DNA of 64,000 nucleotides from an uncultured bacterium (GTDB lineage: Bacteria > UBP6 > UBA1177), in assembly GCA_905235605.1 (NCBI GenBank), contig CAJOMF010000014.1:4662-68661 (forward strand). Reading direction: 5' to 3'. How positions within the stretch are numbered: the first letter of the stretch is position 1; each line of letters begins with the position of its first letter. Shown one piece after another: positions 48,404 to 61,449 of the stretch. Made by a program: the position numbers and the translations under genes. Below the pieces are notes generated by a model, which worked only from the letters and a program-made list of their open reading frames with translations, was not told the DNA's origin and did not search any database.

Positions 48404-49234
48404 TTATGCGGCTTTGTCGAAAGCCAATATTTTATTGATCAATTTCGACAGTGATTCTTCTTTGAGTAATTTGCCGGTGAACTTTTTTATTGTTTTATGG
48501 TACTGACGTATATCGTATATGACCTCATCTTGCTGCTCTTTGTTTCTGAACCTCAATATCATAAAACGGATGTGTCTCTGGTATGCTTTGAAATCGGAAT
48601 TCACGAAATCATAAAATGTCTTTTCAGGGAAGCGTGTATGGTAAAATATTGCAAATTCGCTTCTTGCTTCCGTCAGATCGGAATAAGACGGCTTGTCACT
48701 GTGTTGGATATCTACTATTTCGTTGTTTATTTTTCTTTGGTTTGATTGAATGAGATCGTAACCTGGGAATTTTTTTGTTTTATCGGAACTCCAGTCTCTG
48801 TCGATGGGTTTTGACGGATCAAAAAACTCTCCCGAAAGGTCGTTGATGTAAAATTCCAGATCTTCGATCCCGATCTGCTTTATTTTGTGCTTTTTCTCCA
48901 TAAACTTCCGGCCTTCAAATGTGATTTCATAACTTTCGCCGTTTTCTTTCAGCAGCTCGTTCTTTATCAGGAAATTGAATTGCATATTCAGAAAACTGTT
49001 GCTGTCTATGCCCAGGAAAGAGCATATTTTCGAATATTCGGTAATACCGTTGTCGACAAGTTTCAGGATCACCATGCTGAAACGGTCGATTTCTCTTTCA
49101 GTTTCAAAAGCGACTTTCTGTTTGCATTTCCAGAACGGGAGATCAATTTCGAAAATGTCTTCCAGCTGGAATCCTTCCGTTGAGTATTCGTCCTTGTAAA
49201 GTTCCCAGATCCTCTGTTTAAGTTCTCTATCCAT
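48404..49234 (-). CDS. Hypothetical 276-aa protein (possible wHTH), translationally coupled to the upstream helicase
   Basis: 8-nt overlap with the helicase stop (…ATGGATAG…). Central segment resembles a winged helix. Confidence 0.45.
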   Translation of the reverse strand: MDRELKQRIWELYKDEYSTEGFQLEDIFEIDLPFWKCKQKVAFETEREIDRFSMVILKLVDNGITEYSKICSFLGIDSNSFLNMQFNFLIKNELLKENGESYEITFEGRKFMEKKHKIKQIGIEDLEFYINDLSGEFFDPSKPIDRDWSSDKTKKFPGYDLIQSNQRKINNEIVDIQHSDKPSYSDLTEARSEFAIFYHTRFPEKTFYDFVNSDFKAYQRHIRFMILRFRNKEQQDEVIYDIRQYHKTIKKFTGKLLKEESLSKLINKILAFDKAA

Positions 49235-52214
49235 TGAAAACCTCCTCCAAACTGTTGAATATAAGACCTTCTTTCTGAAGTTTTTCTGCTATTTTCTGCA
49301 ATTTGAATTCCGGAAAATCCTCCGACGGGGTGAATGTCGCCCTGTTCAGGAGGTAATCGCTGTCTCCGACTACGAACAGCAGGCGTTTCGCTCTCGAAAA
49401 TGCGACGTTGATCCTTCGGTAATCGGCTAAAAATCCGATGTTGTCCTGCCCCTGAGCACTTCTGACGATGTCGTAGATTATGATATCGCGTTCGGCTCCC
49501 TGAAATTTGTCGACAGTCTTTATTTCTATGAGGGGCTCACCCTTTTCCGTTACGAAATTACGGTATTTTTTCAGATTGATCTTCTGCTTCAGAAGCTCCA
49601 CCTGACCTTTGTAGGCGGCTATAACACCAATAGTGAGCGGCTTCTCTTTTTTCGTATTGGACGGATAAAGCGAGTTGAGTTTTTCAAGCAGTTCTTTTAT
49701 GGCTTCGACATTGCACTGGTTCTGGCGGAAGAATTTGTTGCCGTTGTCGTAAGGCTGAGGTCTTTGGGAAGTGCTCAAAAACGCTATGGATGTCGGTTTT
49801 TTCAAATTCAGACCATGTGCCTTGTCGGCATCGAAGCCGGGAATATCAGGGTTTTTGAGTTTGCCGTCGTAAAAGAATTCCGAGATCAGGCTCCCGATCT
49901 GTTTAGGCATCCGGTACTGGATATCGAGCATTCTTATGAAACGCTCGTTCGGAGTTCCCTGAAATCCTTTTTTTATTTTTTCGAAAAGACTGACTCCGTA
50001 GGTTTTGTCTATATCGAGACCGTCGTCTTCCATTTTTTCTCTGACATTCTTTCTTACAGCTTCTTCTCTTGTGATAACTGGCGGAAGCTGCCTGTCATCT
50101 CCTATCATTATGATGTTTTTCCCCATGCTCAAAGGGACAAGCGATTCTGCAGGGGTGGCTTTGCTGCTTTCATCCATTATTACATAGTCGAATTCAAAAT
50201 GTATATTCCGATATTTGCTGCTTGCGATATGGATGCATGTCGCTCCGACAACATTCGTGTTGTTAAGCATCGCGCTCAGGAGATCTATCTTTTCGCTTCC
50301 GTTGTCCAGCAGTGCTTTGTTTTTGAGCAGACCGTTGCCTATAAATGCAAGCCAATCTTTATTTATCTCAAGCAATATCCCGTTTTGGTCTTTGTCCGCG
50401 AACTCTTTTGAAAAATTTTCCGATGATGTTTTTGCCGTGTCGTTTATGTATTTTTCCAGCTTTTTTTCGAAGCAGTGCTGTTTCATCAGAATCGAAACAT
50501 TGTCCTTTTCCAAAGCGTTGTCACTTGCCAGCCGCATGAATGTCACATCTTTTTCTCCAGCAAGTTTTTCCAGGACGTTGTCCACTGCCAGATTCGACTG
50601 GGATGTCAGCAGGATCCTGACGTTTTTATTCTGTTTGATCAATTGGAGTATGATCTCAAGGATAACTGTCGTCTTGCCTGTTCCGGGAGGGCCTTGAATG
50701 AGGTATATCGGTTTGTAGTTGATCGCATCGACAACAGCTTCCAATTGAGATTCATCGTTTTCCAGCTTAGGATTGAAAAGATCATTCAGAATGTCGGCAT
50801 GATCCGATGGATGGATTCTGCAAGGTATTTCGCTTTCAGGCGTGGTTACTATGTCACACAGTTGTTTATTCACAATATCGCGCTGTTGAAATTGCTGACA
50901 GGCCTCTATCTGCTTTTTAAACTGGCTCGTTTTTTGATTGGTGTCTTCTGTAATGGTCCATGATTCAGGGATTTCTTCAATATTCCGTTTTGGATCTTTT
51001 ATCGTTATAGTTCCATCTTCCGGGCCGTAGTCGAGGATCTCACCGATCAGCGGAAGCGGAGGTTTTTTGCTCTGTAAAAACACTTTCGTTTGTTCATTTT
51101 TCAGTTCTTTGATCTTGCCCCAGTTGATCCCAGTATAGTCCTTTAAATAGAAGATCAAATCACCGTTGTCGCTTTCTTCTACCTTGTCATACTTTACTGC
51201 AAAGGCATTTTCTTCGATGTAGCGTTTTTCCGACTGAGGCAGTTCCTTCCAAATCTCCAATTCATTTTGTTGAGTCCGGTTCAATTCAGACAGCCTGTTG
51301 CTTTTCACTGCTGAGCGGAAATGGCGGCTCAATGGTGGCAGTTTTTTCAGCAGATCTATCAGATCTGCATACTTAGAAAAACGTTCGGTGCGTTCCTCTG
51401 CCAATGACCCAGACAGTATCAGATCGATGGTCTCCTTATGGTCTTCAGTCGCATAATTCTCTCTGATAAAATCCTCGAAAGTCTTTATGAGAGAGTAGAT
51501 ATCATCCTGAAAATTTATCCGGCCGTTTCTGCTAGAAAGATATCTTTTTGCTCCAGCAGAAAGATAATTTTGATCAAGCAGTCCTTCATCGGCGAAGATG
51601 TCGAAAAGTTTTGCGAAAAGGAGTTCTGCACGTCCCTCATCGTCAATTTTGATGTATTTTGGTGATATTATGAATTTCTCTGAATTCTCGTTTTTCTTGA
51701 ACCAATCGAGGCCGAGAGCAATATTGGTAACATCGGTGATATCAACTTTTTCGGCGGATTCTTCAAGCATGTTGTCTCCGAAATTCTCATAAACTATGTA
51801 ATAAAAATGCTGATTTTCATCGTATCCTGTATCCATGATCTTTACAAATCCAGGGATCTCTTTGTCAATCAAAGGCTTTATTTCGTAATCAAGGATCCTT
51901 TTTATCTTTCTGGCGTTTGTTTCCGTTTCTTTTATCATCAGAATGTCAAAGATTTCGCCTTCACGGTTTTCGCACCCTTCGAAAAAACGGAGGTTGGAAC
52001 TTAATTCTTTCGAAGCTGAGATAACGGTGTAATTTCCTATCGTTTCTGTGCCCGATATGTCATTTGCTGCACTCTCTTCCTCTTCTTCAAAGACCTCTTC
52101 GGAATCAAAATCCATGCTTAATGATTCATAAGAAAAGAAACGGTCGGATCTCCCCGAATAGGTGAGTTCTTCGATCGGTTCTCCGAGATAGAATAAATTC
52201 GAGTTTTTTTTCAT
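49227..52214 (-). CDS. Upf1-like SF1B helicase (DNA2/NAM7, AAA_11/AAA_12-type) with roughly 480-aa uncharacterised N-terminal domain
   Basis: Walker A GPPGTGKTT. Motif II VIMDESSKA. Motif III/IV region. Motif VI KFQGAERDIIIYDIVRS. Start placed at MKKNSNLF (ATG 52214) after GGAGG. N-terminal half has no clear family but shows a kinase-like beta3-K / hinge pattern. Confidence 0.7.
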   Translation of the reverse strand: MKKNSNLFYLGEPIEELTYSGRSDRFFSYESLSMDFDSEEVFEEEEESAANDISGTETIGNYTVISASKELSSNLRFFEGCENREGEIFDILMIKETETNARKIKRILDYEIKPLIDKEIPGFVKIMDTGYDENQHFYYIVYENFGDNMLEESAEKVDITDVTNIALGLDWFKKNENSEKFIISPKYIKIDDEGRAELLFAKLFDIFADEGLLDQNYLSAGAKRYLSSRNGRINFQDDIYSLIKTFEDFIRENYATEDHKETIDLILSGSLAEERTERFSKYADLIDLLKKLPPLSRHFRSAVKSNRLSELNRTQQNELEIWKELPQSEKRYIEENAFAVKYDKVEESDNGDLIFYLKDYTGINWGKIKELKNEQTKVFLQSKKPPLPLIGEILDYGPEDGTITIKDPKRNIEEIPESWTITEDTNQKTSQFKKQIEACQQFQQRDIVNKQLCDIVTTPESEIPCRIHPSDHADILNDLFNPKLENDESQLEAVVDAINYKPIYLIQGPPGTGKTTVILEIILQLIKQNKNVRILLTSQSNLAVDNVLEKLAGEKDVTFMRLASDNALEKDNVSILMKQHCFEKKLEKYINDTAKTSSENFSKEFADKDQNGILLEINKDWLAFIGNGLLKNKALLDNGSEKIDLLSAMLNNTNVVGATCIHIASSKYRNIHFEFDYVIMDESSKATPAESLVPLSMGKNIIMIGDDRQLPPVITREEAVRKNVREKMEDDGLDIDKTYGVSLFEKIKKGFQGTPNERFIRMLDIQYRMPKQIGSLISEFFYDGKLKNPDIPGFDADKAHGLNLKKPTSIAFLSTSQRPQPYDNGNKFFRQNQCNVEAIKELLEKLNSLYPSNTKKEKPLTIGVIAAYKGQVELLKQKINLKKYRNFVTEKGEPLIEIKTVDKFQGAERDIIIYDIVRSAQGQDNIGFLADYRRINVAFSRAKRLLFVVGDSDYLLNRATFTPSEDFPEFKLQKIAEKLQKEGLIFNSLEEVFNG

Positions 52215-52251
52215 TTTTTCCTCCTTGAGAAGCGTTACATCCAACACCACT

Positions 52252-52314: not shown

Positions 52315-54048
52315 TTATTGGTTGTTTCTCACACACACAACTTTGAGTTTATAGTCGAGAATGTAGGGAAAATCTGCCGAATGTGCTCCTCCGCGATTGT
52401 ATGCGTCAATAAGCATCGTCATGTGGCCGACTCTGGCGTTCATAAAGTCAACGCCCCATGCTTCTTTAGTGTTTTCCGGGTCGAGAGTTGATGACCAGAA
52501 GGCCTCAATTGAGCCGGTTTTGCTGAATTTGGGATCGTTTATTTCTTCCAAAAGTTGTTTTTGGGTTTCTTCTCCGAGCTCATAGTATTCCGTTTTTGCC
52601 GTCAGAGTGTTGATTTTACCGCACCCGTTGCAGTCTTTGCTCCAGCATTTTTCATTAAGGCACTGTCTGTTTTCGCTGATTCTGCACCTGCCTCCCAATT
52701 TGGTTTTGTCGCAGTTGTGAATAAGCGTGCGCAATTCGTCTATGTTTGGCAGGTGCCAGTCGGAATTGTTGTTTTCTGTAAGGTTTGAGCAGTAATTCTG
52801 TGCTTCTTCCCATGTCATCGGATCGGCTGCAACGGACGACCACTTCAAAGACTTGGGATTTGGCAATGATTTCACAGGTTTCCTTTTAGGTTTAACCTTG
52901 AAATCGTCATCTTTTCTGTCGCGGACGCAGATCACATCTGTATCGTGGTTTATCACCGGCACATAAAGAGCGAGGTCGAGCACCGGACTGTATGTCCAGC
53001 CGAACCGGTCTGGCCTTGCATGAGAGCCGTCCCAGATACTGTTTGCCGTGAGAGCCCTTATCCCGTGAGTTCTTCTTGCAGCAAGGAAAAAACTTTCATC
53101 TGCATCTTTTTCCGGCTTTTTATATCTGCCGTGCAGCGATTTTAATTCTTCTATTGTCGGCTGGCGCCAGTCGCTGAAACCTCCTTCTCTTAAAGATTCA
53201 CAGTATGCATAGGCATCATGCACCCCGAAAGTATTGTTCACGCAGTCACGATACAGGTATCCGCAGGGAATTTCCCGTTCTTCGTTTTCTTCGCAGATCC
53301 AGCTTTCATCGCAAAGTCCTTTTGCTGCGGTGTACATGATGTGCCGATCTGCAAGCAGCGCTGCTGTGTAGTTTTTCTTTTTCGACACCGTGCTTTCAGA
53401 CCACTGCAGTTTGTCAGGATCGATGGTTTTTTCTATTTCAATTTTTTTCTCTGCGGCAAAGTCTTTCGGGTAAGATTCCCTGACGCACGCAACATTGCAG
53501 AGATCCCGCATACACGGGCGGCACGGATGCCAGTCAGGATCGGCAAGGCAGCTTTTTCCGCTAACCATCCCGTAACCGTTAAACCAGTTCTGGTCATTTT
53601 CCTTTTCGTTGAAAGACCAGAAACAGCTGTCGTAAAGGTAAAATCCGTTGACATAAGTCCGCAATGTGTCAGCCTCTTTTTCTGTGTAGAATATGCCGCT
53701 TCCCTCCTTGAATACTGAACAATCTTTCATTATTGATTTCAATTCCTCGGTTGTCGGCGGTCTCCAGTCGGAAAAACCGTCTTCGCGCAGCTCTTCGCAG
53801 TATTCTGCGATGGTGTCGTAATACATCGGTCCGGGAGAGGGCTGCGACCACATAAGATTTGGAGCGACATCGGTTTTTACAGTGGACTGCTTCTCACGGC
53901 GTATGGCAGGATCGGGATCATTTTCAGTGTCTTGAAGCAGAATTATGTCTTCGTTTTTTGGTTTCTGAACCTCTTCTTTTGAAGAACAGCCGGACATCAA
54001 GCAGAGTGTAATCATGCAAAGGTGTAAGATCATTGAGATATTTTTCAT
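52315..54048 (-). CDS. Secreted lipoprotein with three DUF1566 / Fib_succ_major domains
   Basis: Lipobox LMSGCSS. Three copies of the YCEELREDGFSDWRPPTTEELKSI / YCESLREGGFSDWRQPTIEELKSL / YCSNLTENNNSDWHLPNIDELRTL signature. Confidence 0.7.
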   Translation of the reverse strand: MKNISMILHLCMITLCLMSGCSSKEEVQKPKNEDIILLQDTENDPDPAIRREKQSTVKTDVAPNLMWSQPSPGPMYYDTIAEYCEELREDGFSDWRPPTTEELKSIMKDCSVFKEGSGIFYTEKEADTLRTYVNGFYLYDSCFWSFNEKENDQNWFNGYGMVSGKSCLADPDWHPCRPCMRDLCNVACVRESYPKDFAAEKKIEIEKTIDPDKLQWSESTVSKKKNYTAALLADRHIMYTAAKGLCDESWICEENEEREIPCGYLYRDCVNNTFGVHDAYAYCESLREGGFSDWRQPTIEELKSLHGRYKKPEKDADESFFLAARRTHGIRALTANSIWDGSHARPDRFGWTYSPVLDLALYVPVINHDTDVICVRDRKDDDFKVKPKRKPVKSLPNPKSLKWSSVAADPMTWEEAQNYCSNLTENNNSDWHLPNIDELRTLIHNCDKTKLGGRCRISENRQCLNEKCWSKDCNGCGKINTLTAKTEYYELGEETQKQLLEEINDPKFSKTGSIEAFWSSTLDPENTKEAWGVDFMNARVGHMTMLIDAYNRGGAHSADFPYILDYKLKVVCVRNNQ

Positions 54049-54073: not shown

Positions 54074-54364
54074 TTAGGCAACGCAAAGAAGACGGTATTC
54101 TTCGTGCCATGTTCTGTCGTCTTCAAAAGCGATAATGTTTCTGAGTTTTCGTCTGAATTCGCGCTGAGGTTTGTCACTTTTGTAGAAGGAATAGTGCGTA
54201 AGGTGGTAACAGCCGCATTTTGAGCAGTAATATTTCCTTTTCGGGATCTCGTTCGCGTGTCCGCATTTTTTTGCTCCGTTGAGAGCGTTTCCCGCTTCTC
54301 TTTCAGTGTAGCAGATCTTTCCCGTGCTTTTGCATCTCAAATCTCTTCCGAAATCGTCTTTCAT
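54074..54364 (-). CDS. Small zinc-ribbon protein (CxxxxxxC … CSKCGC)
   Basis: 96 aa, basic, two Cys clusters. GGAGGG RBS. Island motif copy 4 lies 44 nt upstream. Confidence 0.4.
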   Translation of the reverse strand: MKDDFGRDLRCKSTGKICYTEREAGNALNGAKKCGHANEIPKRKYYCSKCGCYHLTHYSFYKSDKPQREFRRKLRNIIAFEDDRTWHEEYRLLCVA

Positions 54365-54454: not shown

Positions 54455-55012
54455 TCATACTAAAGTGTTAAAAAGCCTGTCCCCAGTGTCTGGTCCTATG
54501 CCGTTTTTTTGAGTCAAAACTTTTTGACCGACAAAAGAATTATTTGAAACTCTGACTGTAAAAACTTCATAATCGTTGAATTTTTTAATAGATTTCTCGC
54601 ACAAAACATTCGTGACAATTTTAATTTTATCTTTTGGAATCTCAGATTTTTCGATTGCACTCAAAATGCCCTTTCCTGAATTGATAACTGCATCTACGAA
54701 AATAACGTCTTTGTTGAAAAGCAGCAGTTTGTTTTTCTCAAAAAAATCCTTGTCTGTTTTGTCATCGTAAAATGTTACGGCACAATCCAGACAATCTGCA
54801 AAACCTAAAGCCATTGGAATCCCAGCCCTTATTAAAGCTATGATTATGGAATCTTTTGTGAAGTGATTTTTAAAATATTTCCCTAATGCAAATCCCAAAT
54901 CAATATGAGCATGTCTCAATTCAGCTCCAGTTTTTTGAGAGTCACTTTTGCAAATACTGATTGCGTCAACAATTTTATCTGTTGAAAAATTTTCGCTTAA
55001 AACATACAGCAT
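54455..55012 (-). CDS. Uracil phosphoribosyltransferase-like PRTase (Upp family)
   Basis: PRPP-binding loop VIFVDAVINSGKG. C-terminal GIGPDTGDRLFNT matches the Upp tail (GLGDAGDRLFGT). GAGGAG RBS. 2-nt gap to the upstream gene. Confidence 0.65.
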   Translation of the reverse strand: MLYVLSENFSTDKIVDAISICKSDSQKTGAELRHAHIDLGFALGKYFKNHFTKDSIIIALIRAGIPMALGFADCLDCAVTFYDDKTDKDFFEKNKLLLFNKDVIFVDAVINSGKGILSAIEKSEIPKDKIKIVTNVLCEKSIKKFNDYEVFTVRVSNNSFVGQKVLTQKNGIGPDTGDRLFNTLV

Positions 55013-55014
55013 TA

Positions 55015-56220
55015 CTATTCTCCTCTGATTCCTTTATATTGATTTTCATTCCCTGCAAACTGTCGTATTGCGGTGTTTCTATGATTATCAATGTATGTTT
55101 GTACAGCAGGTCTTATTTTCCCTGGAGCCCAGAGGTAGCCGCTTGACATTTCAAGCATATAAATGTCGCACATGCTGTCTCCGGCACTAAAAACTTCGTA
55201 ATTTTGTAACAGAAGCAATTCTACGACATAACCTTTGACAAAATCCGAGATAAGATTCTTTGAGTTTTGGTTGAGATCGTTGCCTATTACCATTTCAAAT
55301 AAATGATGCTCTGCATTGAATTGATTCCAAAATTTATATATTCCAGAGGTGAGTCCAAACACGTGATACCCAGAAGTTTTTAAAGATTTTAGTTTTTCGA
55401 TGACGATATTATTGGCATGAAATAAAGAGGTCTTAGGGTGTTTTTTGAAGTTCTTGTATAATTCCTTTTGTCGCCAAAACTGATATACAGAATAGATATC
55501 GTCTGTAAAAATGGTTTTTAATATTGCAGGATCGGTGTTGTTGAGTTCAAAAAACGGAATAGTCGAATCCTCTTTAATGATGGTCTTGTCACAATCAAAT
55601 ATGGCGATTTTTTTAAATTTGTTTGGGTCGGAGCGTGTGTTCTCAATTTGAGAAACAATTCTTTGAGCTATGTTCATAGGTGTTAATTCAGGGAAACAAT
55701 CCATGTATTCATGCAAAAACTTCATGTCCAGATCAAAATCAGCATCCAGAACAATGAATTCTTTACGAGATTTGAAGCATATATCTCTAAGTTCCGAAAT
55801 CTCTTTTAATTGCCAATCTTTTATTTGTTGTTCCGTAAGATTTCTAAATTTTTGATTTTTCTGGCTTAAATTTATTCTTTCTTTTGCAATAGATGGATTG
55901 ACGTGCAGGTACAAAAATATGTCGTACAACTTACAATCGTTTTCTGTGCAAACAATTTTAAAACTTTGAGAATCAGGAAAACAATAGTGACCATCGACAA
56001 TAAAATCCTGTTGATTTTTTAATTCTTCTGCGAAAATAGTTCTTGTCCTTTTTTGAAGTTCGGAATCTAATTCCTGAAAATTTTTGCAATATATCCTGTT
56101 AGATATGATGTTTAATTGCTCAGATCCTTTCTTGTGGCAGTATTGCGGAAAATGACGAAGAAATTTTTCTATAAACGTGTCTTTCCCGGCACAGGAAATT
56201 CCATATACAGCAATCTTCAT
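55015..56220 (-). CDS. Fusion of a P-loop nucleoside/nucleotide kinase-like domain (Udk/NRK-like) and a HAD-superfamily phosphatase domain
   Basis: N-terminal KIAVYGISCAGKDT P-loop. C-terminal HAD motif I IAIFDCDKTII (DxDxT) and motif IV GDSMCD. ATGA overlap with the radical SAM gene. Confidence 0.6.
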   Translation of the reverse strand: MKIAVYGISCAGKDTFIEKFLRHFPQYCHKKGSEQLNIISNRIYCKNFQELDSELQKRTRTIFAEELKNQQDFIVDGHYCFPDSQSFKIVCTENDCKLYDIFLYLHVNPSIAKERINLSQKNQKFRNLTEQQIKDWQLKEISELRDICFKSRKEFIVLDADFDLDMKFLHEYMDCFPELTPMNIAQRIVSQIENTRSDPNKFKKIAIFDCDKTIIKEDSTIPFFELNNTDPAILKTIFTDDIYSVYQFWRQKELYKNFKKHPKTSLFHANNIVIEKLKSLKTSGYHVFGLTSGIYKFWNQFNAEHHLFEMVIGNDLNQNSKNLISDFVKGYVVELLLLQNYEVFSAGDSMCDIYMLEMSSGYLWAPGKIRPAVQTYIDNHRNTAIRQFAGNENQYKGIRGE

Positions 56221-57128
56221 TTTATATCCCCTATATATTTGTCAAAATAGCATTCCCCGTCATTAAGCTGCTTAAATCGTTGCATGGATTTTTCTACCGA
56301 TATTAACGAATCTGACGCCTTGCCTATTTCATATTCAGGTAGTCCGATGAATCTGCCGCAAGGGTATATTTTATTGTTCGCATAAAAAATGTTTGTTTTT
56401 CCGACCCCGCATAACTGACCATACATCGTGCAGTCGTATCGTTTGGGTTTGCGCAACTGTCTCAGTAACAGTTTTTTTTGAGAGGCCTCCTCTATAAATT
56501 TAATAAAATCGCCTTTGGATATGTATAAATCCGGAGATTTTTCATCCACAAGTCTGGAAAAGCAGACTTCGGAAAAATTCTGCTCAAAAAATCTAAGAGT
56601 TTCTGTTTCGCTGCTCAGTGTTCCTTTGTGAACAGTTGCATTTACGGAAGGTGTTTCCTGAAAGATTTTTTTATATAGATTTATAGAGTTCATTACAATG
56701 TCAAAGGAGCCTTTTCCGTAGGCAAGTGTTCTGCATGAATCATGTAGATTTTTATCGCCGTCTATGGAAAAACATAGTTTTATTAAATCCCGATTGTTGT
56801 GGAACCACCGGATAATATTTTCTGTGGCAGAGATCCCGTTGGTTATGGTGTAAAAAGACAGCAGTTTATGTTTGGCGATCAGCCTGGTATACGAGACAGC
56901 TTCTTGTATTAAATCAAACCGGATTAACGGTTCCCCTGCGCCGACAAGTCCGATTTTGAAATTTATCTTGTTCTCTTCTGAATAAGCAACAATGTTGGAT
57001 ATAATATTGAGCAGAACTTCTGTAGAAATGTCATTGCAAGACTGCTTTGAAACATGCTTGTCAAAGTGGCAGTATCTGCAGCGAAGTTGGCATTTGCCTG
57101 TTATGGAAATACAAGCTCTGTCAATCAT
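56217..57128 (-). CDS. Radical SAM enzyme, MoaA/viperin-like (CxxxCxxC near N-terminus, GAGEPL)
   Basis: ISITGKCQLRCRYC (CX3CX2C) resembles the MoaA N-terminus (ISVTDRCNLRCTYC). …NKINFKIGLVGAGEPL… resembles viperin/MoaA (EKINFSGGEPF). C-terminal Cys pair. Start at MIDRAC (ATG 57128) after GAGG. Confidence 0.7.
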   Translation of the reverse strand: MIDRACISITGKCQLRCRYCHFDKHVSKQSCNDISTEVLLNIISNIVAYSEENKINFKIGLVGAGEPLIRFDLIQEAVSYTRLIAKHKLLSFYTITNGISATENIIRWFHNNRDLIKLCFSIDGDKNLHDSCRTLAYGKGSFDIVMNSINLYKKIFQETPSVNATVHKGTLSSETETLRFFEQNFSEVCFSRLVDEKSPDLYISKGDFIKFIEEASQKKLLLRQLRKPKRYDCTMYGQLCGVGKTNIFYANNKIYPCGRFIGLPEYEIGKASDSLISVEKSMQRFKQLNDGECYFDKYIGDIK

Positions 57129-57129
57129 T

Positions 57130-58389
57130 TCAGACCTCATTGTTTTCAGTTTTTGCAAATTTTTTATTAATTTCAGGATCGTTGATTTGGAGGGCATAAT
57201 CTTTGGCGGTTTTGTTTTCGTAACGACTGTGAATATTTAAGTCTGTTTTATCAACAAGATAGTTTGCAACATCAGAACACTTTCTAATGCAAGCTTTTAT
57301 TAAAGGCGTAAAACCGTTGGAATCCTGTTGGTTGCAGCAAGCTCCCTGTTCAACAAGATATTTTACTATCTCAAGTTCTCCATGCCATGCAGCGATCATC
57401 AAAGCAGTGTTTCCGTAATTATCGCCTTGCGAACCTTTGTCTATGTCAGCCCCGTTTTGCAATAGGATTTTTATAAATTCTAAATTTTTTATTTGAACCG
57501 CATGGCTAATTGGTGGAAGTCTGTATTTTGCATCGTCGCATTTATTTATATCTGTTCCCGGCAGGGAAATAAGGTATTCGAGCATTTTTTTGTCTCTATT
57601 TCTGATTGCTTGAATGCAAGGGGTATATCCCGTTTTGGGGTCAGTATGATTTATGTCGGGATTTCCCTTTTTTACTTTCTCTGCATCCAAAATATTTCCG
57701 TTTTTAACAGCATTGTAAAAATTGCCGGTGTCTCTGGGGCTAAAATCTTCATCCGATAGAGAGAATTCTCTTTCGTAATCCTCAAGATTTAACACTTTGA
57801 AATTTAGAGTTGATGCAGCTTTCAAAGGGAAATAAACATCTTCAGCAAGAAGAAAAACGGTTAGTGATGAGTCTTTTTTGGCTTCACGCAGAGCAGCATT
57901 TATGATTTTATTGTCGTTGAAATTCTCATTTTTATTAACAACATCTTCGAGAACTAAAAATCTTTTTTCATCTTTTTTCTGCAAATCAACAAAAGACTTC
58001 ATAGCTAGCCAAGCCTGTTGCTTTCGTTTTCCACGATCTTTTTGGTAATTCATTTCATCAAGAACTGTTTCGGTAATGCAGATATAGTTAATGGCTTTTT
58101 TTCCATTCATTTCTTCCAAAATTCTTGGTCTGCGGCACAATATGGATGAATCCACGATCAGCATGATTTTTTTTGATTTTTTCAATCCTAACAATTCGTC
58201 AATGCTCACACAAAATGTTTGAGCTATTTGAATTAGCTGGTCGGTTGTCGGAAGACTTTTCGCTTGTTCCCAATTCGACACTGTAGGTCTTGAAACATTG
58301 AGCTTGTTTGCAAACTCTTCTTGTTTTAGCCCTTTGGAATTTCTTAACTCTTCAATGTTTTTAGCAATTTCGTCTTTTGAGTAATTCAT
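57130..58389 (-). CDS. XRE-family HTH + PIN-like domain + ankyrin-repeat protein
   Basis: HTH_XRE (LKQEEFANKLNVSRPTVSNWEQ). PIN-like acidic motifs (KIMLIVDSSIL…ITETVLDEM). At least two ankyrin repeats (GNTALMIAAWHGELEIVKYLVEQGA…). AGGAG RBS. Confidence 0.6.
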   Translation of the reverse strand: MNYSKDEIAKNIEELRNSKGLKQEEFANKLNVSRPTVSNWEQAKSLPTTDQLIQIAQTFCVSIDELLGLKKSKKIMLIVDSSILCRRPRILEEMNGKKAINYICITETVLDEMNYQKDRGKRKQQAWLAMKSFVDLQKKDEKRFLVLEDVVNKNENFNDNKIINAALREAKKDSSLTVFLLAEDVYFPLKAASTLNFKVLNLEDYEREFSLSDEDFSPRDTGNFYNAVKNGNILDAEKVKKGNPDINHTDPKTGYTPCIQAIRNRDKKMLEYLISLPGTDINKCDDAKYRLPPISHAVQIKNLEFIKILLQNGADIDKGSQGDNYGNTALMIAAWHGELEIVKYLVEQGACCNQQDSNGFTPLIKACIRKCSDVANYLVDKTDLNIHSRYENKTAKDYALQINDPEINKKFAKTENNEV

Positions 58390-58590
58390 TTTTTTCTCCT
58401 TTCAAGTGGTTCTGTTTCTCAAAAAAACAATCAACGAAAAGTATTTTAAGCAAGAATTTTTAATGTCAATATCAATTACTTGTATTTTGACCAATGTTAA
58501 ATCTTCTTACATTTGTAAAAAATCCTGACATCGCAATAAATAGAACAATGTATCCTTTTTTCACTTATCAAAGAACCTTTCTGCTCTACC

Positions 58591-58695: not shown

Positions 58696-59553
58696 TTAGT
58701 ACAACTTTTCCTTGTGTTCCAATTCGAGTTTTTTATCGTCGATGGAAGCCTTGAGGATTTCGTAGTATTTCTGGCGTGTAAATATGTTTGCTTTGTATTG
58801 TGCGTGCTGTTTGCCGTCCAGTTTGCTCTCAACTGCATGCCGTTTCAGAATCTCTTCGACAAAACGGTTCGGGATCGCGTAGTCGATAAGCAGACAGTCG
58901 ATGAGATCGACTTTGCTCCTGCCGTTCAGGAAAGCGCAGGTTTTGAGAACATGGACGATTCTTTTCCAGCGGGAGTCACTTACATAGAACTCGAAGCACT
59001 TTCTTCTGATTTCTGAAATGACACTTTTGGCTTCTTCGCTCAGTTCGACCCTGTCGATTACCGGCTGCCACTCTTTTACTTCCTTTATTGTAAGCAGTGC
59101 GGCTTTTTGTTCTTTATCGGGATGCGGGATTGTCTCGAAGCTGGGACTGTTTACGAAGTTAAAAAAATTGTCGTCATCCGCAATCGGTTTTACCTCGACA
59201 GTAATGACCCAATCTTCATTATTTTCCGCAGCTTTATAGGGATCTGCTTCCGACGAGTTTTCCATACGGAATAAAGAATCAATGCCGTATTCTGACGACC
59301 GGGGGGCAAACTGATCATGGCTGTAATAATCTTTAAACGCACTTTGGATAGAGAACTGAATAAGTTTTTTGTCGTTGTCGGATCTTCCGGAAAGAATAAT
59401 GTCTTCCGCAGCAACAGCCGAAAGCAGCGAAAGGTTGATTACTTCCTCTCTGCCTCGCAGATTACGGTTTAAAAAGGCAAGAACAGTTTCAATACGGTCA
59501 CGCATTTCCTTGCCGGAAAAAATCTTTTTTTCTCCCGAATTGTTGTCGCTCAT
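58696..59553 (-). CDS. Hypothetical protein (island edge, adjacent to tRNA-Leu)
   Basis: ATG 59553 after GAGG. No recognisable family. A partial motif-like TTTTTGACAATTTT lies at 59603-59616 upstream. Confidence 0.4.
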   Translation of the reverse strand: MSDNNSGEKKIFSGKEMRDRIETVLAFLNRNLRGREEVINLSLLSAVAAEDIILSGRSDNDKKLIQFSIQSAFKDYYSHDQFAPRSSEYGIDSLFRMENSSEADPYKAAENNEDWVITVEVKPIADDDNFFNFVNSPSFETIPHPDKEQKAALLTIKEVKEWQPVIDRVELSEEAKSVISEIRRKCFEFYVSDSRWKRIVHVLKTCAFLNGRSKVDLIDCLLIDYAIPNRFVEEILKRHAVESKLDGKQHAQYKANIFTRQKYYEILKASIDDKKLELEHKEKLY

Positions 59554-59680
59554 CTTCAACCTCGTAAAAAGTGATTAAAAAACTGCGTAATTTTAAAGAA
59601 GAAGAGATTTTTGACAATTTTTTGCGGGAAACGGTTTTTCAGCTTTTCTATTTGCTGCAAAGCTTGGATTGTTCTAAAAA

Positions 59681-59768
59681 TGGTGCCGGAGACCGGGCTC
59701 GAACCGGTACAGGAGGTTATCCCGAGGGATTTTAAGTCCCTTGCGTCTACCAATTCCGCCACTCCGGC
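59681..59768 (-). tRNA. tRNA-Leu (anticodon UAA), CCA encoded
   Basis: Minus-strand read: GCCGGAGTGGCGGAATTGGTAGACGC…AGGGACTTAAAATCCCT…GGTTCGAGCCCGGTCTCCGGCACCA. Long variable arm. Anticodon loop CTTAAAA. Confidence 0.85.
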
Positions 59769-59785
59769 GGTTATAAGTTTGAAAA

Positions 59786-59859
59786 TGGAGGCACCTTCCG
59801 GATTCGAACCGGAGATGGAGATTTTGCAGACCTCTGCCTTACCTCTTGGCTAAGGTGCC
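59786..59859 (-). tRNA. tRNA-Cys (anticodon GCA), CCA encoded
   Basis: GGCACCTTAGCCAAGAGGTAAGGCAGAGGTCTGCAAAATCTCC…GGTTCGAATCCGGAAGGTGCCTCCA. Anticodon loop CTGCAAA. Confidence 0.85.
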
Positions 59860-59897
59860 GACCAAAAAGAATTTCGATTGAAAAAGGACATAAAAAA

Positions 59898-59973
59898 ATG
59901 GAGCGGGAAACGGGATTCGGACCCGCGACGTCTACCTTGGCAAGGTAGCACTCTACCACTGAGTTATTCCCGC
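59898..59973 (-). tRNA. tRNA-Gly (anticodon GCC), CCA encoded
   Basis: GCGGGAATAACTCAGTGGTAGAGTGCTACCTTGCCAAGGTAGACGTCGCGGGTCCGAATCCCGTTTCCCGCTCCA. Anticodon loop TTGCCAA. Confidence 0.85.
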
Positions 59974-60074
59974 TCTGGCAGGCGACAAGATAGTCAGAAA
60001 CTTTTGAATGTCAAGTTTTTTTTGCAGGTTTTTGAAAAAATCTGCTTTTTCCTGCGCGCTCCCGCCTTGTATCT

Positions 60075-60170
60075 GAGAAAATTTTGCGGAAAGTGCGTTT
60101 TTTGGCGAAAAAAATTTTGCGAAAAGTGCAGTTTTGAGCAAAAAAAATTTTGCGATTCCTGCAAAGCCAT
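60075..60170. repeat. Three tandem imperfect copies of AAAATTTTGCG(G/A)AAAGTGC(A)GTTTT; a related copy at 59619-59645 and a 45-bp near-duplicate at 63074-63118
   Basis: Direct comparison: 60117-60160 ttttgcgaaaagtgcagttttgagcaaaaaaaattttgcgattc versus 63074-63118 ttttgcggaaagcgcagttttgagcaaaaaaattttgcgattc. Confidence 0.55.
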
Positions 60171-60411
60171 TAAAATCATTATTCTTTTTAGTTGTCCGGT
60201 TACAAAACTCATAAGTCGCTGGATTTATTCTGTGAAAAGTTTTCTTCGCGAATCGGAGAAAAAATTCTGCTTTACACTAAAGATTATCAGAAAGACGGCG
60301 AAGTTCAGTGCATTCCCGCTTATTTCACATGGCTTTTGTGATTTTTTTGCCAAAACAAAGAATTTTTATAAAATACTGCGGTTTAAAAATCGAGGCTCTC
60401 CGAGGTCGCAA

Positions 60412-61449
60412 ATGAGGAAAATCACGACGCTTTTTGCTCTGGCAATTTTGGTGTTTTTTATTCTGATGACCGGTTGCAGTAAGTTTCCGGAATGCAGCCC
60501 GACAAGCAAAACTCCGTGCAAAGATTCATCAACCGGTCTTATCTGGTCATCAAAATCACACGGCATAATGTATGATTCTGATGCCAAATATTATTGCAGC
60601 CACCTTCAGGAAGGCGGTTATTCCGACTGGCGTCTGCCGTTGATTGATGAACTCAGAACATTGATAGAAAATTGCCGGAAAACGGAAACTGGCGGGGAAT
60701 GCAGAGCTTCCGAGGAGTGTCGCGATAGCTGTTGCGAAAATGATGCCTGTGCGGGATGTCCTTTCAATTCAAGCGGTTATTACAGCAAGTTAGGTGACAG
60801 CGAAACACTTTGGTCTTATTCCTGGCCTACTGACGGTGGGGCAGATTGCAGCTGGTCTGTAAATTTCAGCGAAGGCGCGGTTCACATTGACAACGAATAC
60901 CTTTACACCCGCTGTGTAAGGGGTGCTTCCCAAGATGATGAAGAAGGAGACGGGGAAGATGAAGAGGATGAAGAAGACGAGGAAGAAGAGGAAGAAGAAA
61001 ACGGCAACCGTTTAAACGGTGCGTGTTTCAAAGTTGACGGCAGAGAGTGGTCGAATCTTTCTTCCATAAAATTTATCTGGTCTGATGCAGTGAAGTACTG
61101 CGACAAGTTGAATCAATGCGGACATTCCGACTGGCATCTGCCCACAATCAGCGAGCTCCGTACTTTGATTCAAAACAATCCGGGAACAGAATCCGGCGGA
61201 ACATGCGGTGTTACCGACACTTGTCTTAGTGATGAGGATTGTTATGATTTAGACAATTGCTGGTCTGTGGGGCTTTATGGTGACGGCCCATACAGCAAAC
61301 TCGGTGACGAGGAGTGGTTCTGGTCTTCTTCTGATTTGTCCGATGAGCCGGACTATGCGTGGGGCGTTGATTTTTACGACGGCACTATCAGTGAGTATGA
61401 GAAAAATGTTTACGATTCCGAGGGATGCAATGTCCGTTGCGTGAGGTGA
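60412..61449 (+). CDS. Lipoprotein with two DUF1566 / Fib_succ_major domains and an acidic (DEEDEEEEE) linker
   Basis: Start MRKITTLF (ATG 60412). The ORF track's upstream extension overlaps the tRNAs and is spurious. Lipobox LMTGCS. YCSHLQEGGYSDWRLPLIDELRTL and YCDKLNQCGHSDWHLPTISELRTL. Confidence 0.7.
   Translation: MRKITTLFALAILVFFILMTGCSKFPECSPTSKTPCKDSSTGLIWSSKSHGIMYDSDAKYYCSHLQEGGYSDWRLPLIDELRTLIENCRKTETGGECRASEECRDSCCENDACAGCPFNSSGYYSKLGDSETLWSYSWPTDGGADCSWSVNFSEGAVHIDNEYLYTRCVRGASQDDEEGDGEDEEDEEDEEEEEEENGNRLNGACFKVDGREWSNLSSIKFIWSDAVKYCDKLNQCGHSDWHLPTISELRTLIQNNPGTESGGTCGVTDTCLSDEDCYDLDNCWSVGLYGDGPYSKLGDEEWFWSSSDLSDEPDYAWGVDFYDGTISEYEKNVYDSEGCNVRCVR

What the first reader, a model, noticed from the sequence alone, without database searches (positions are those of the whole stretch)
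57130..58389. Unusual three-domain protein: XRE HTH + PIN-like nuclease + ankyrin repeats heading the radical SAM operon
PIN nucleases fused to an N-terminal HTH resemble toxin/regulator hybrids. Ankyrin repeats are uncommon in bacteria and usually mediate protein-protein contacts. As the first gene of the cassette, it could couple a sensor to an RNase effector or auto-regulate the operon.
Basis: partly seen in the sequence, partly recalled or inferred. Interest (0 to 1): 0.5.

Follow-up and report, generated by a model that had tools for sequence, protein, structure and literature searches.

The report
HTH-PIN-ankyrin gene leading mobile cassette
The three-domain protein is real, keeps an intact PIN nuclease active site, and is the constant first gene of an undescribed four-gene cassette (nuclease-ankyrin protein plus three nucleotide-type enzymes) that moves between distant bacteria, archaea and prophages, which makes it a good but untested candidate for a new conflict or immunity system.

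Summary
Observation confirmed. ORF 57130-58389(-) encodes 419 aa with an XRE HTH (1-68), a PIN_4 domain (72-205) and ankyrin repeats (220-415). All three pass Pfam gathering scores.

- The acidic quartet D80/E112/D159/D184 is invariant in 32 homologues at 36-86% identity.
- The PIN-only model (pLDDT 90.8) matches Dis3, SMG6, Nmd4 and VapC PIN domains.

New findings:
- The gene is always first in a four-gene cassette: [HTH-]PIN-Ank, a twitch-like radical SAM enzyme, an NMP-kinase-like/HAD-IB phosphatase fusion, and a UPRTase-like enzyme.
- Every one of about 24 distinct loci with enough flank has all four genes. They come from Spirochaetota, Fibrobacter, Kiritimatiellae, Firmicutes, Pasteurellaceae, Neisseria, Desulfovibrio, Bacteroidota, Methanomassiliicoccales and prophages.
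- Flanks differ. Several are defence islands or prophage accessory slots.
- The HTH is optional. PIN-Ank is never missing.
- Ankyrin is the most conserved domain.
- The PIN-Ank gene alone was allele-swapped between two near-identical genomes.

I found no description in PADLOC v2 or the searched literature. The most likely function is a conflict-system nuclease/regulator coupled to synthesis of a pyrimidine-derived nucleotide. That function is inferred, not shown.

The parts
57130..58389 (-). HTH-PIN-ankyrin protein gene, 419 aa
   Evidence: ORF. Pfam hits to HTH_3, PIN_4 and Ank_2. More than 100 full-length homologue clusters with the same architecture. AF2 model with mean pLDDT 89.9 and pTM 0.58.
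58186..58389 (-). XRE/Cro-C1 type HTH domain (aa 1-68)
   Evidence: HTH_3 6e-14. Five short helices in the model. Absent in some homologues.
57775..58176 (-). PIN_4-type PIN nuclease domain (aa 72-205); catalytic D80, E112, D159, D184
   Evidence: Quartet invariant in 32 homologues. The four acids sit after S1, after S2, at the N-terminus of H4 and after S4 in the model. These are the canonical positions given in PMC5499597. Foldseek top hits are Dis3/Rrp44, Nmd4, SMG6 and VapC PIN domains. The PIN profile hits the MJ1533 PIN domain at 3.7e-4.
57145..57732 (-). Ankyrin repeat domain (aa 220-415; about 4 repeats plus caps)
   Evidence: Ank_2 6e-44. Most conserved domain: mean pairwise identity 47.5%, against 36.9% for PIN. 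Invariant residues fall at binding-surface positions: Q299, N324, N327, W335, N358 and K365 are invariant, and R263 and K288 are nearly invariant.
58430..58494 (-). Promoter-like site (TTGACA 58469, 18 nt spacer, AATACT ending 58440) bracketed by two 24-nt direct repeats (58471-58494, 58430-58453); candidate operator, low confidence
   Evidence: The motif is found only in the orthologous loci L035/L036. The promoter scan is not enriched over shuffles.
56217..57128 (-). Radical SAM enzyme, 303 aa, with CX3CX2C plus four invariant C-terminal Cys (one auxiliary cluster, twitch-like)
   Evidence: Pfam Radical_SAM. NCBIfam best hits are the SPASM maturases PapB 3e-32 and SCIFF 4e-29, all below their cutoffs. 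Closest PDB entry is CteB, 5wgg, at 5e-18. Cys pattern from the alignment.
55015..56220 (-). P-loop NMP-kinase-like domain fused to a HAD-IB (phosphoserine-phosphatase-like) domain, 401 aa
   Evidence: AAA_17 1.8e-9 and HAD. Invariant GxxxxGKD, DGHY, DxDxT, T, K and GDSxxD motifs. The profile hits phosphoserine phosphatase 1f5s at 2.7e-7.
54455..55012 (-). UPRTase-like phosphoribosyltransferase, 185 aa
   Evidence: Pfam UPRTase 5e-11. RAGL, VDAVINxG and C-terminal GPDTGDRLF motifs align with T. maritima UPRT 1o5o through its C-terminus.

Best explanation
The gene encodes a cytoplasmic, catalytically competent PIN (PIN_4/SMG6-Dis3-like) ribonuclease fused to a conserved ankyrin module. In this lineage it also carries an N-terminal XRE HTH.

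It is the invariant first component of a self-contained, horizontally mobile four-gene cassette. The other three products are a twitch-type radical SAM enzyme, an NMP-kinase-like/HAD-IB phosphatase fusion and a UPRTase-like phosphoribosyltransferase. Together these look like a short pathway that builds and modifies a pyrimidine nucleotide from a base plus PRPP.

Most likely working model (all steps inferred):
1. The HTH tethers the protein to its own promoter and autoregulates the operon.
2. The conserved ankyrin groove binds one constant ligand, either the cassette's nucleotide product or one of the three enzymes.
3. That binding controls the PIN nuclease.
4. RNA cleavage by PIN is the output of a conflict (anti-phage or anti-mobile-element) system.

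Shown here: the architecture, the intact active site, the PIN fold, strict synteny, mobility, and the modular exchange of the PIN-Ank gene.
For: Architecture and active site:
- Domains pass Pfam cutoffs.
- The acidic quartet is invariant across 36-86% identity and sits at canonical PIN positions.
- Fold matches to Dis3, SMG6, Nmd4 and VapC PIN domains at 1e-5 to 1e-3, with query-normalised TM-score (TMq) up to 0.77.
- Ten remote PIN-profile hits (E 1e-21 to 1e-11) all keep PIN+Ank, and eight of them also show an N-terminal HTH.

Synteny:
- Every locus with enough flank carries all four genes.
- Kinase-HAD is fused to the PRTase in three Firmicutes loci (Rosetta-stone link).
- Translational coupling in the window.

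Mobility and conflict context:
- GC is 0.36 in the cassette against about 0.45 for the window. It lies about 1.3 kb from a tRNA cluster, with a truncated RavA-like ORF between them.
- Flanks differ at every site. In Pasteurella multocida the cassette sits between ilvA and trpS.
- Neighbours include an MkoA-like helicase, a DruE-like helicase with a type IIG RM system, DUF2357, DUF4238 and PDC-S01.
- A divergent clade sits between the lysis genes and the serine integrase of prophages and is always followed by a NERD nuclease gene.

Effector rather than pure regulator:
- The HTH is missing in several lineages, whereas PIN-Ank never is.

Constant ligand:
- Ankyrin is the most conserved domain, with invariant residues on the concave face.

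Two modules:
- Pairwise identities of the three enzymes co-vary with r = 0.79-0.87, against 0.35-0.49 between PIN-Ank and the enzymes.
- Between two genomes that are 96% identical, only PIN-Ank is divergent: dS 0.49 against 0.08 or less for its neighbours, with dN/dS 0.14.

Pyrimidine chemistry:
- UPRT signature motifs, including the C-terminal loop.
- NMP-kinase-like DGHY motif and complete HAD motifs.
Against: - No experiment exists for any member, and public annotations are generic.
- The defence-island association has no background control. Several loci (L007, L037, L039, L040) have only ordinary neighbours.
- The cassette was not found in isolated phage genomes or plasmids.
- No alternative effector ever replaces PIN-Ank, whereas effector swapping is common in signalling defence systems.
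- The radical SAM enzyme's closest characterised relatives modify peptides, not nucleotides.
- The candidate operator is not conserved outside the orthologous loci, and the promoter scan is not above chance.
- Inter-domain geometry is uncertain (pTM 0.58), so nothing can be said about ankyrin-PIN autoinhibition.
Confidence: 0.5

Rival explanations
1. Pathway-specific regulator of a biosynthetic or salvage operon. The three enzymes would make a modified pyrimidine nucleoside or nucleotide as a natural product, cofactor or salvage intermediate. HTH-PIN-Ank would only control expression, through transcription (HTH) and mRNA turnover (PIN), with no role in conflict.
For: - The PRTase + radical SAM + HAD phosphatase set recalls nucleoside-analogue gene clusters such as toyocamycin and tubercidin (my own knowledge, not tested here).
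- UPRT, NMP-kinase and HAD motifs are intact.
- Several loci sit among ordinary metabolic genes.
- The gene is first in the operon and carries an XRE HTH.
Against: - The HTH is absent in many lineages while PIN-Ank is retained, and no separate HTH gene was detected next to most of them.
- The distribution is patchy and cross-domain, the cassette sits in prophage accessory slots, and GC is low. These point to a selfish or accessory trait.
- There is no transporter or resistance gene in the cassette.
Confidence: 0.2
2. Fused type II toxin-antitoxin-like module. An XRE antitoxin-type DNA-binding domain and a VapC-like PIN toxin would sit in one polypeptide and be functionally independent of the downstream enzymes. 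The enzymes would merely be co-transcribed cargo.
For: - PIN_4 proteins in bacteria are classed largely as TA toxins, and 16% of PIN-associated antitoxins are HTH type (PMC5499597).
- The HTH matches antitoxin and repressor models such as PezA, HipB, MqsA and RstR at sub-threshold scores.
Against: - Synteny with the three enzymes is strict in all ~24 loci across phyla, including at 26-31% identity.
- The genes are translationally coupled.
- There is no separate neutralising partner ORF.
- The ankyrin module is always fused and highly conserved.
Confidence: 0.08
3. Protein-modification system. The SPASM/twitch radical SAM enzyme would modify a protein or peptide, possibly PIN-Ank itself or an invader protein. 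The kinase and the phosphoserine-phosphatase-like HAD would act on a phospho-Ser/Thr intermediate, and the ankyrin repeats would present the substrate.
For: - The best radical SAM relatives are peptide maturases: PapB, SCIFF, anSME and CteB.
- The HAD half is closest to phosphoserine phosphatase.
- Ankyrin repeats are typically protein-protein modules.
Against: - All maturase scores are far below family cutoffs.
- There is no RRE domain and only one auxiliary cluster.
- No conserved precursor-peptide ORF is present.
- The UPRTase-like enzyme with full uracil/PRPP motifs has no obvious role in this scheme.
Confidence: 0.1
4. Degenerate or non-catalytic PIN. The central domain would be a structural or RNA-binding relic, as in SMG5, and the protein only a scaffold.
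For: Some PIN_4 members, such as SMG5, are inactive.
Against: - All four canonical acidic residues are invariant across 32 diverse homologues.
- dN/dS is 0.14.
- N114, K117 and D118 in the ELNxxKD motif are also conserved.
Confidence: 0.04

Closest known systems
PIN_4 (PF13638) nucleases: bacterial VapC-like toxins and PhoH2, eukaryotic SMG6, Dis3/Rrp44 and Nmd4 PIN domains
   Same: Same fold and the same four-acid metal site at the same topological positions. The domain passes the Pfam gathering score, and its structural best hits are these proteins.
   Different: None of those proteins carries an N-terminal XRE HTH plus C-terminal ankyrin repeats. The 2017 PIN superfamily catalogue does not mention ankyrin at all (0 occurrences). 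There is no partner antitoxin and no PhoH ATPase.
VapBC-type type II toxin-antitoxin modules
   Same: A PIN nuclease associated with a DNA-binding domain that could autoregulate the promoter.
   Different: Here the DNA-binding domain is fused, optional and N-terminal to PIN. No separate antitoxin exists. The gene is always followed by three enzymes.
RNase L (ankyrin repeats that bind 2-5A, fused to an RNase)
   Same: An ankyrin repeat module fused to a ribonuclease, encoded here next to nucleotide-metabolising enzymes. The ankyrin concave face is invariant, as expected for a small-ligand site. This resemblance is recalled from knowledge and is a lead, not a test.
   Different: The nuclease is PIN rather than HEPN/KEN. 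There is no pseudokinase domain and the domain order is reversed. No OAS-like synthetase is present. Ligand binding is untested.
Prokaryotic viperins with associated kinases (pVip/VakA)
   Same: A radical SAM enzyme next to a nucleotide kinase in mobile or defence contexts. Hits to the pVip (2.4e-9) and VakA (1.6e-3) models are weak.
   Different: The radical SAM enzyme scores far better against SPASM/twitch enzymes and has a four-Cys auxiliary-cluster motif. The PRTase, HAD and PIN-Ank components are not part of pVip systems.
Nucleoside-analogue biosynthetic clusters (toyocamycin/tubercidin type: PRTase + radical SAM + phosphatase)
   Same: The same enzyme classes are combined (my own knowledge).
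   Different: The radical SAM subfamily differs (not QueE). There are no GTP cyclohydrolase or other pathway genes. The cassette has only four genes, is mobile across domains, and is led by a nuclease.

Membership tests
PIN domain-like superfamily, PIN_4 (PF13638) | Sequence match above the curated Pfam threshold | tested here: met
   33.3 bits against a cutoff of 21.9, residues 77-193. The profile hits the MJ1533 PIN domain at 3.7e-4 and RRP44 at 7e-3.
PIN domain-like superfamily, PIN_4 (PF13638) | Alpha/beta/alpha fold with a parallel sheet, structurally superposable on solved PIN domains | tested here: met
   PIN-only AF2 model with pLDDT 90.8 and pTM 0.85. Foldseek hits: Dis3 1e-5, SMG6 with TMq 0.74-0.77, then Nmd4 and VapC.
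PIN domain-like superfamily, PIN_4 (PF13638) | At least four acidic residues: after S1, after S2, at the N-terminus of H4, and after S4 | tested here: met
   D80, E112, D159 and D184 are invariant in 32 homologues. The criterion is from PMC5499597.
PIN domain-like superfamily, PIN_4 (PF13638) | Metal-dependent nuclease activity | not testable with these tools
   Needs a biochemical assay.
XRE/Cro-C1 HTH (PF01381) | Sequence match above threshold and a five-helix bundle | tested here: met
   52.2 bits against a cutoff of 23. Helices at 5-18, 23-30, 34-41, 49-59 and 63-66.
XRE/Cro-C1 HTH (PF01381) | Specific operator binding at its own promoter | tested here: inconclusive
   Two 24-nt direct repeats bracket a promoter-like site. 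They are not conserved beyond the orthologous loci, and no comparable repeats were found in six other loci.
Ankyrin repeat proteins | Tandem 33-residue helix-turn-helix repeats matching the Ank models | tested here: met
   Ank_2 148.9 bits and Ank 79.8 bits. Paired helices from residue 257 to 379 in the model.
Type II toxin-antitoxin (VapBC) | Two-gene module with a separate antitoxin that neutralises the PIN toxin | tested here: not met
   There is no small same-strand ORF adjacent to the gene. It is always followed by the radical SAM, kinase-HAD and PRTase genes.
Prokaryotic viperin (pVip) system | The radical SAM enzyme belongs to the viperin family | tested here: not met
   pVip models score only 2.4e-9, against 3e-32 for SPASM maturases. 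A C-terminal four-Cys auxiliary-cluster motif is present.
Any system in PADLOC-DB v2.0.0 | The cassette proteins match the models of one described or candidate system | tested here: not met
   Only generic domain-level hits: PDC-M72A on the ankyrin region, HTH models, and weak pVip, VakA and PRTase_III-A.
RNase L-like ligand-gated ankyrin-RNase | Ankyrin repeats bind a nucleotide messenger that activates the fused RNase | not testable with these tools
   Only indirect support: ankyrin is the most conserved domain, with invariant concave-face residues. The nuclease class differs (PIN, not HEPN).

The most novel reading that the evidence does not exclude
The cassette is a new kind of immune or conflict system in which the UPRTase-like, kinase/HAD and twitch radical SAM enzymes make a modified pyrimidine nucleotide. 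The invariant ankyrin groove of the first protein senses that molecule to switch on (or hold off) its PIN RNase. This would be a prokaryotic counterpart of the RNase L logic, with a radical-SAM-made ligand, carried by prophages and genomic islands in bacteria and archaea.
Probability: 0.15. Interest if true: 0.85.

Novelty: new variant of a known kind. Interest (0 to 1): 0.62.

Why it matters
If the cassette is a conflict system, it would add a nuclease effector gated by ankyrin repeats and a radical-SAM/PRTase/kinase-phosphatase nucleotide pathway to the known repertoire. Its product could be a new antiviral nucleotide or messenger.

The system is compact at four genes and about 4 kb. It occurs in cultivable, genetically tractable hosts (Pasteurella multocida, Actinobacillus equuli, Neisseria, Desulfovibrio subterraneus, Vibrio aerogenes). 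The catalytic residues to mutate are clearly predicted. The hypothesis is therefore directly testable.

Even if it turns out to be a regulated biosynthetic operon, the obligate PIN-ankyrin fusion is an uncharacterised family. Its public annotation is only 'ankyrin repeat' or 'HTH domain-containing protein'.

Tried and rejected
- **Literature.** Five full-text searches combining PIN, ankyrin, radical SAM, phosphoribosyltransferase, HAD and defence terms found no description of the cassette.
- **PADLOC and NCBIfam.** Only domain-level or sub-threshold hits.
- **Isolated phages and plasmids.** No full-length PIN-Ank in 50,697 phage records. No kinase-HAD in 72,556 plasmids.
- **Effector swapping.** I searched with the kinase-HAD profile in species genomes and in the 5.8-billion protein set. 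Every context inspected still had PIN-Ank. One look-up (Vibrio aerogenes) returned nothing.
- **Riboswitch or ncRNA in the leader.** Rfam at E<=1 gave only the three tRNAs and a chance snoRNA hit.
- **Conserved operator.** The 24-nt repeat occurs only in the orthologous loci. No comparable repeats were seen upstream in six other loci.
- **PDB sequence searches.** A single-sequence search of the PIN region gave nothing significant. The kinase-HAD sequence gave nothing until a profile was used.
- **T4 Pnkp-like RNA-end healing.** I considered this for the kinase-HAD protein. I set it aside because the HAD half is a capped HAD-IB, phosphoserine-phosphatase-like enzyme.
- **Viperin membership** for the radical SAM enzyme was rejected.
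Full report
**1.

The minus-strand ORF 57130-58389 encodes 419 aa from an ATG preceded by AGGAG. Pfam finds three domains, all above gathering scores:

| Domain | Residues | E-value |
|---|---|---|
| HTH_3 | 12-66 | 6e-14 |
| PIN_4 | 77-193 | 6.7e-8 |
| Ankyrin repeats (Ank_2) | about 240-410 | 6e-44 |

A search of 5.8 billion proteins returned 606 hits. The best 120 are nearly all full-length proteins of about 405-440 aa with the same HTH/PIN_4/Ank domain list. A minority of about 340 aa lack the HTH. Public names are only 'ankyrin repeat domain-containing' or 'HTH domain-containing' protein.

**2. The PIN domain looks catalytically competent**

In an alignment of 32 homologues (36-86% identical to the query), D80, E112, D159 and D184 are invariant. 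So are K117, P88, I162 and F187.

An AlphaFold2 model of the whole protein has mean pLDDT 89.9 but pTM 0.58. The domains are therefore confident and their mutual arrangement is not.

In the model the four acids lie just after strand 1 (74-79), after strand 2 (102-106), at the N-terminus of helix 158-172 and after strand 176-181. These are the positions that the PIN superfamily classification gives for the metal site. That paper also states that at least four acids are needed for activity (PMC5499597).

A PIN-only model (pLDDT 90.8, pTM 0.85) finds PIN domains as its top solved-structure matches:
- Dis3/Rrp44 at 1e-5
- Nmd4
- SMG6, with query-normalised TM-score (TMq) 0.74-0.77
- SMG5, AF0591, TTHA0540 and VapC

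A sequence profile of the domain hits the MJ1533 PIN domain (3.7e-4) and RRP44 (7e-3).

**3. The gene is the first member of a strictly conserved four-gene cassette**

In the window it is followed on the same strand by three genes:
- A radical SAM gene. Its true start is ATG 57128, one base after the stop, opening the conserved MIDRACIS N-terminus.
- A 401-aa P-loop kinase/HAD fusion at 55015-56220.
- A 185-aa UPRTase-like gene at 54455-55012.

The same order recurs in every locus with enough flank. The sources are listed below.

| Source |
|---|
| Fibrobacter |
| Methanomassiliicoccales archaea |
| Neisseria |
| Kiritimatiellae |
| an uncultured Fibrobacter element |
| Haloplasmataceae |
| Treponema, Clostridia, Lachnospira, Bacillales, Marinifilaceae |
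| Spirochaetales gut MAGs |
| Desulfovibrio subterraneus |
| Pasteurella multocida |
| a divergent clade in IMG/VR contigs (PIN-Ank only 26-31% identical) |

Variations support functional linkage:
- Kinase-HAD is fused to the PRTase in three Firmicutes loci.
- Kinase and HAD are split in Marinifilaceae.
- Two loci have a second PIN-Ank paralogue.
- The Haloplasmataceae locus has three extra genes: an isochorismatase-like gene, an unknown gene and a second PRTase.

A search that started from the kinase-HAD protein never found it without PIN-Ank. Ten remote hits of the PIN-only profile (E 1e-21 to 1e-11) all carry PIN_4 plus ankyrin repeats, and eight of them also show an N-terminal HTH. In a library of 1.84 billion representatives the PIN subfamily has only 27 clusters at E<=1e-30 and 120 at E<=1e-10. 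The family is therefore rare.

**4. What the partner enzymes look like**

Radical SAM enzyme:
- It has CX3CX2C plus four invariant C-terminal cysteines (C233, C240, C257, C293 in 303-aa numbering). This is the pattern expected for a single auxiliary cluster (twitch-like). There is no N-terminal RRE.
- Its best family hits are SPASM peptide maturases, all far below their cutoffs. Its closest solved relative is CteB.
- The pVip models hit only weakly.

Kinase-HAD fusion:
- The kinase half has GxxxxGKD and an invariant DGHY motif that resembles the DG(F/Y)PR motif of NMP kinases. That resemblance is my reading.
- The HAD half keeps all four HAD motifs and is closest to phosphoserine phosphatase, a HAD-IB enzyme.

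PRTase:
- It keeps the RAGL loop, the PRPP loop (VDAVINxG) and the C-terminal GPDTGDRLF motif.
- These align with T. maritima uracil phosphoribosyltransferase through its C-terminus. Purine PRTases align only over the core.

Together this reads as base + PRPP -> NMP -> further phosphorylation, dephosphorylation and radical modification of a pyrimidine nucleotide. That reading is inference.

**5. Mobility and context**

In the window:
- The cassette has GC 0.36 against about 0.45 for the window as a whole.
- It lies about 1.3 kb from a tRNA-Leu/Cys/Gly cluster, with a truncated RavA-like ORF between them.
- An MkoA-like helicase lies about 2 kb from its other end.

Elsewhere the flanks are unrelated to one another:
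- A DruE-like helicase plus a type IIG restriction enzyme.
- DUF2357 plus an RtcR-like CARF ATPase.
- DUF4238.
- VapBC.
- Plain metabolic genes.

In the divergent clade the cassette sits between tail/holin/endolysin genes and a large serine integrase, or next to two such integrases. It is always followed by a NERD nuclease gene. I did not control the defence-gene association against a background, so it is only suggestive.

**6. Two modules**

Across 17 loci I correlated pairwise identities between the cassette proteins:

| Comparison | r |
|---|---|
| Among the three enzymes | 0.79-0.87 |
| PIN-Ank against the enzymes | 0.35-0.49 |
| PIN against Ank | 0.80 |

The pairs are not independent, so these values are indicative only.

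The window can also be compared with an orthologous locus (L036) that is 96% identical over about 8.6 kb:

| Region | Identity or divergence |
|---|---|
| Kinase-HAD and PRTase genes | 100% identical |
| Radical SAM gene | 96.9% |
| 306-nt upstream region | 97.4% |
| PIN-Ank | 87.5% nucleotide, 86% amino acid; dS 0.49 against 0.08 or less for neighbours; dN/dS 0.14; changes spread over all three domains |

One allele of exactly this gene has been exchanged while staying under purifying selection.

**7. Role of the domains**

- The HTH is optional, so the protein is more than a repressor.
- The ankyrin domain is the most conserved part. Mean pairwise identity is 47.5% for ankyrin, 36.9% for PIN and 39.1% for the HTH.
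- Its invariant non-consensus residues fall at positions that form the concave binding face in designed ankyrin proteins. Q299, N324, N327, W335, N358 and K365 are invariant, and R263 and K288 are nearly invariant. The position mapping is my own.
- This argues for one constant ligand or partner rather than variable invader proteins.
- A candidate operator is noted in the window: two 24-nt direct repeats bracketing a TTGACA-18-AATACT site. It is weak evidence, because the promoter scan is not above chance and the motif is not conserved beyond the orthologous loci. No Rfam element lies in the leader.

**8. Comparison with known systems**

- The protein is a member of the PIN_4 family, of the XRE HTH family and of the ankyrin repeat proteins. 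All tested criteria are met.
- It is not a VapBC module, because there is no separate antitoxin and it is always followed by the enzymes.
- The cassette is not a pVip system and matches no PADLOC v2 system.
- The PIN superfamily catalogue does not mention ankyrin fusions.
- The closest functional analogy is RNase L, in which ankyrin repeats sense a nucleotide and are fused to an RNase. The closest analogies for the enzymes are viperin-plus-kinase pairs and nucleoside-analogue gene clusters. These analogies are recalled from knowledge and remain leads.

**9. Verdict**

This is a real, well-supported three-domain protein with an intact nuclease site. It leads a previously undescribed, widely transferred four-gene cassette.

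The best-supported explanation is a conflict-system nuclease/regulator coupled to synthesis of a modified pyrimidine nucleotide (confidence about 0.5). A regulated biosynthetic operon is the main rival.

I rate it a new variant of a known kind, with interest 0.62.

Noticed in passing
window 49227-52250 (-) and 48404-49234 (-): The 1007-aa SF1 helicase matches the Mokosh MkoA model strongly (4e-137). The overlapping upstream 276-aa ORF has only a weak MkoB hit (1e-6) and a winged-helix domain. This may be a Mokosh-like defence system about 2 kb from the cassette.
   Followed up: partly
window 58696-59559 (-): This 287-aa ORF has a TTG start and matches only the C-terminal lid part of RavA/MoxR ATPases (AAA_lid_8), with no AAA core. 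It is probably a truncated gene. It is conserved in the orthologous loci L035/L036.
   Followed up: no
window 59681-59973 (-): A tRNA-Leu(taa), tRNA-Cys(gca), tRNA-Gly(gcc) cluster lies about 1.3 kb beyond the cassette's first gene, with the truncated RavA-like ORF between them. The region around the cassette has low GC (0.36 at 54-58 kb). Together these are typical of an integration hot spot.
   Followed up: partly
window 57130-58389 compared with L036 1363-2622: Between two genomes 96% identical over about 8.6 kb, only the PIN-Ank gene is divergent (dS 0.49). The next two genes are 100% identical and the upstream non-coding region is 97.4% identical. The apparent recombination breakpoints coincide with the gene borders.
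   Followed up: yes
window 54074-54364 (-): A 96-aa Cys-rich ORF with a zinc-ribbon-like CxxC...CxxC pattern lies just downstream of the PRTase gene. It is conserved at 99% in L035/L036, has no family hit, and is absent from other cassette loci.
   Followed up: partly
L025 10550-11722, L026 4998-5978, L027 10973-12055, L028 11464-12528: In the divergent prophage-borne clade the cassette is always followed by a NERD-domain nuclease gene, which may be a fifth component. In L028 a 190-aa ORF lies between the PRTase gene and the NERD gene.
   Followed up: partly
L035 7518-8165: In one of the two orthologous contigs the radical SAM gene is called at only 215 aa, with a gap after the PIN-Ank stop. 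It may be disrupted, whereas L036 has an intact 303-aa gene.
   Followed up: no
L011 8257-10618: The Haloplasmataceae version has three extra genes inserted between PIN-Ank and the radical SAM gene: an isochorismatase-like gene, a 374-aa unknown gene and a second PRTase. A PHP-domain gene follows the cassette.
   Followed up: partly
window 52315-54048 (-) and 59878-61449 (+): Two large Cys-rich lipoprotein-like proteins with Lcl_C (DUF1566) domains flank the island. The second contains a long acidic E/D run and its called ORF overlaps the tRNA genes, so its true start is probably further downstream.
   Followed up: no
L001 11895-16834: In Fibrobacter sp. UWB2, an RtcR-like CARF-AAA-HTH regulator (PADLOC 5.8e-173) and a 1165-aa DUF2357 protein sit directly downstream of the cassette.
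   Followed up: no
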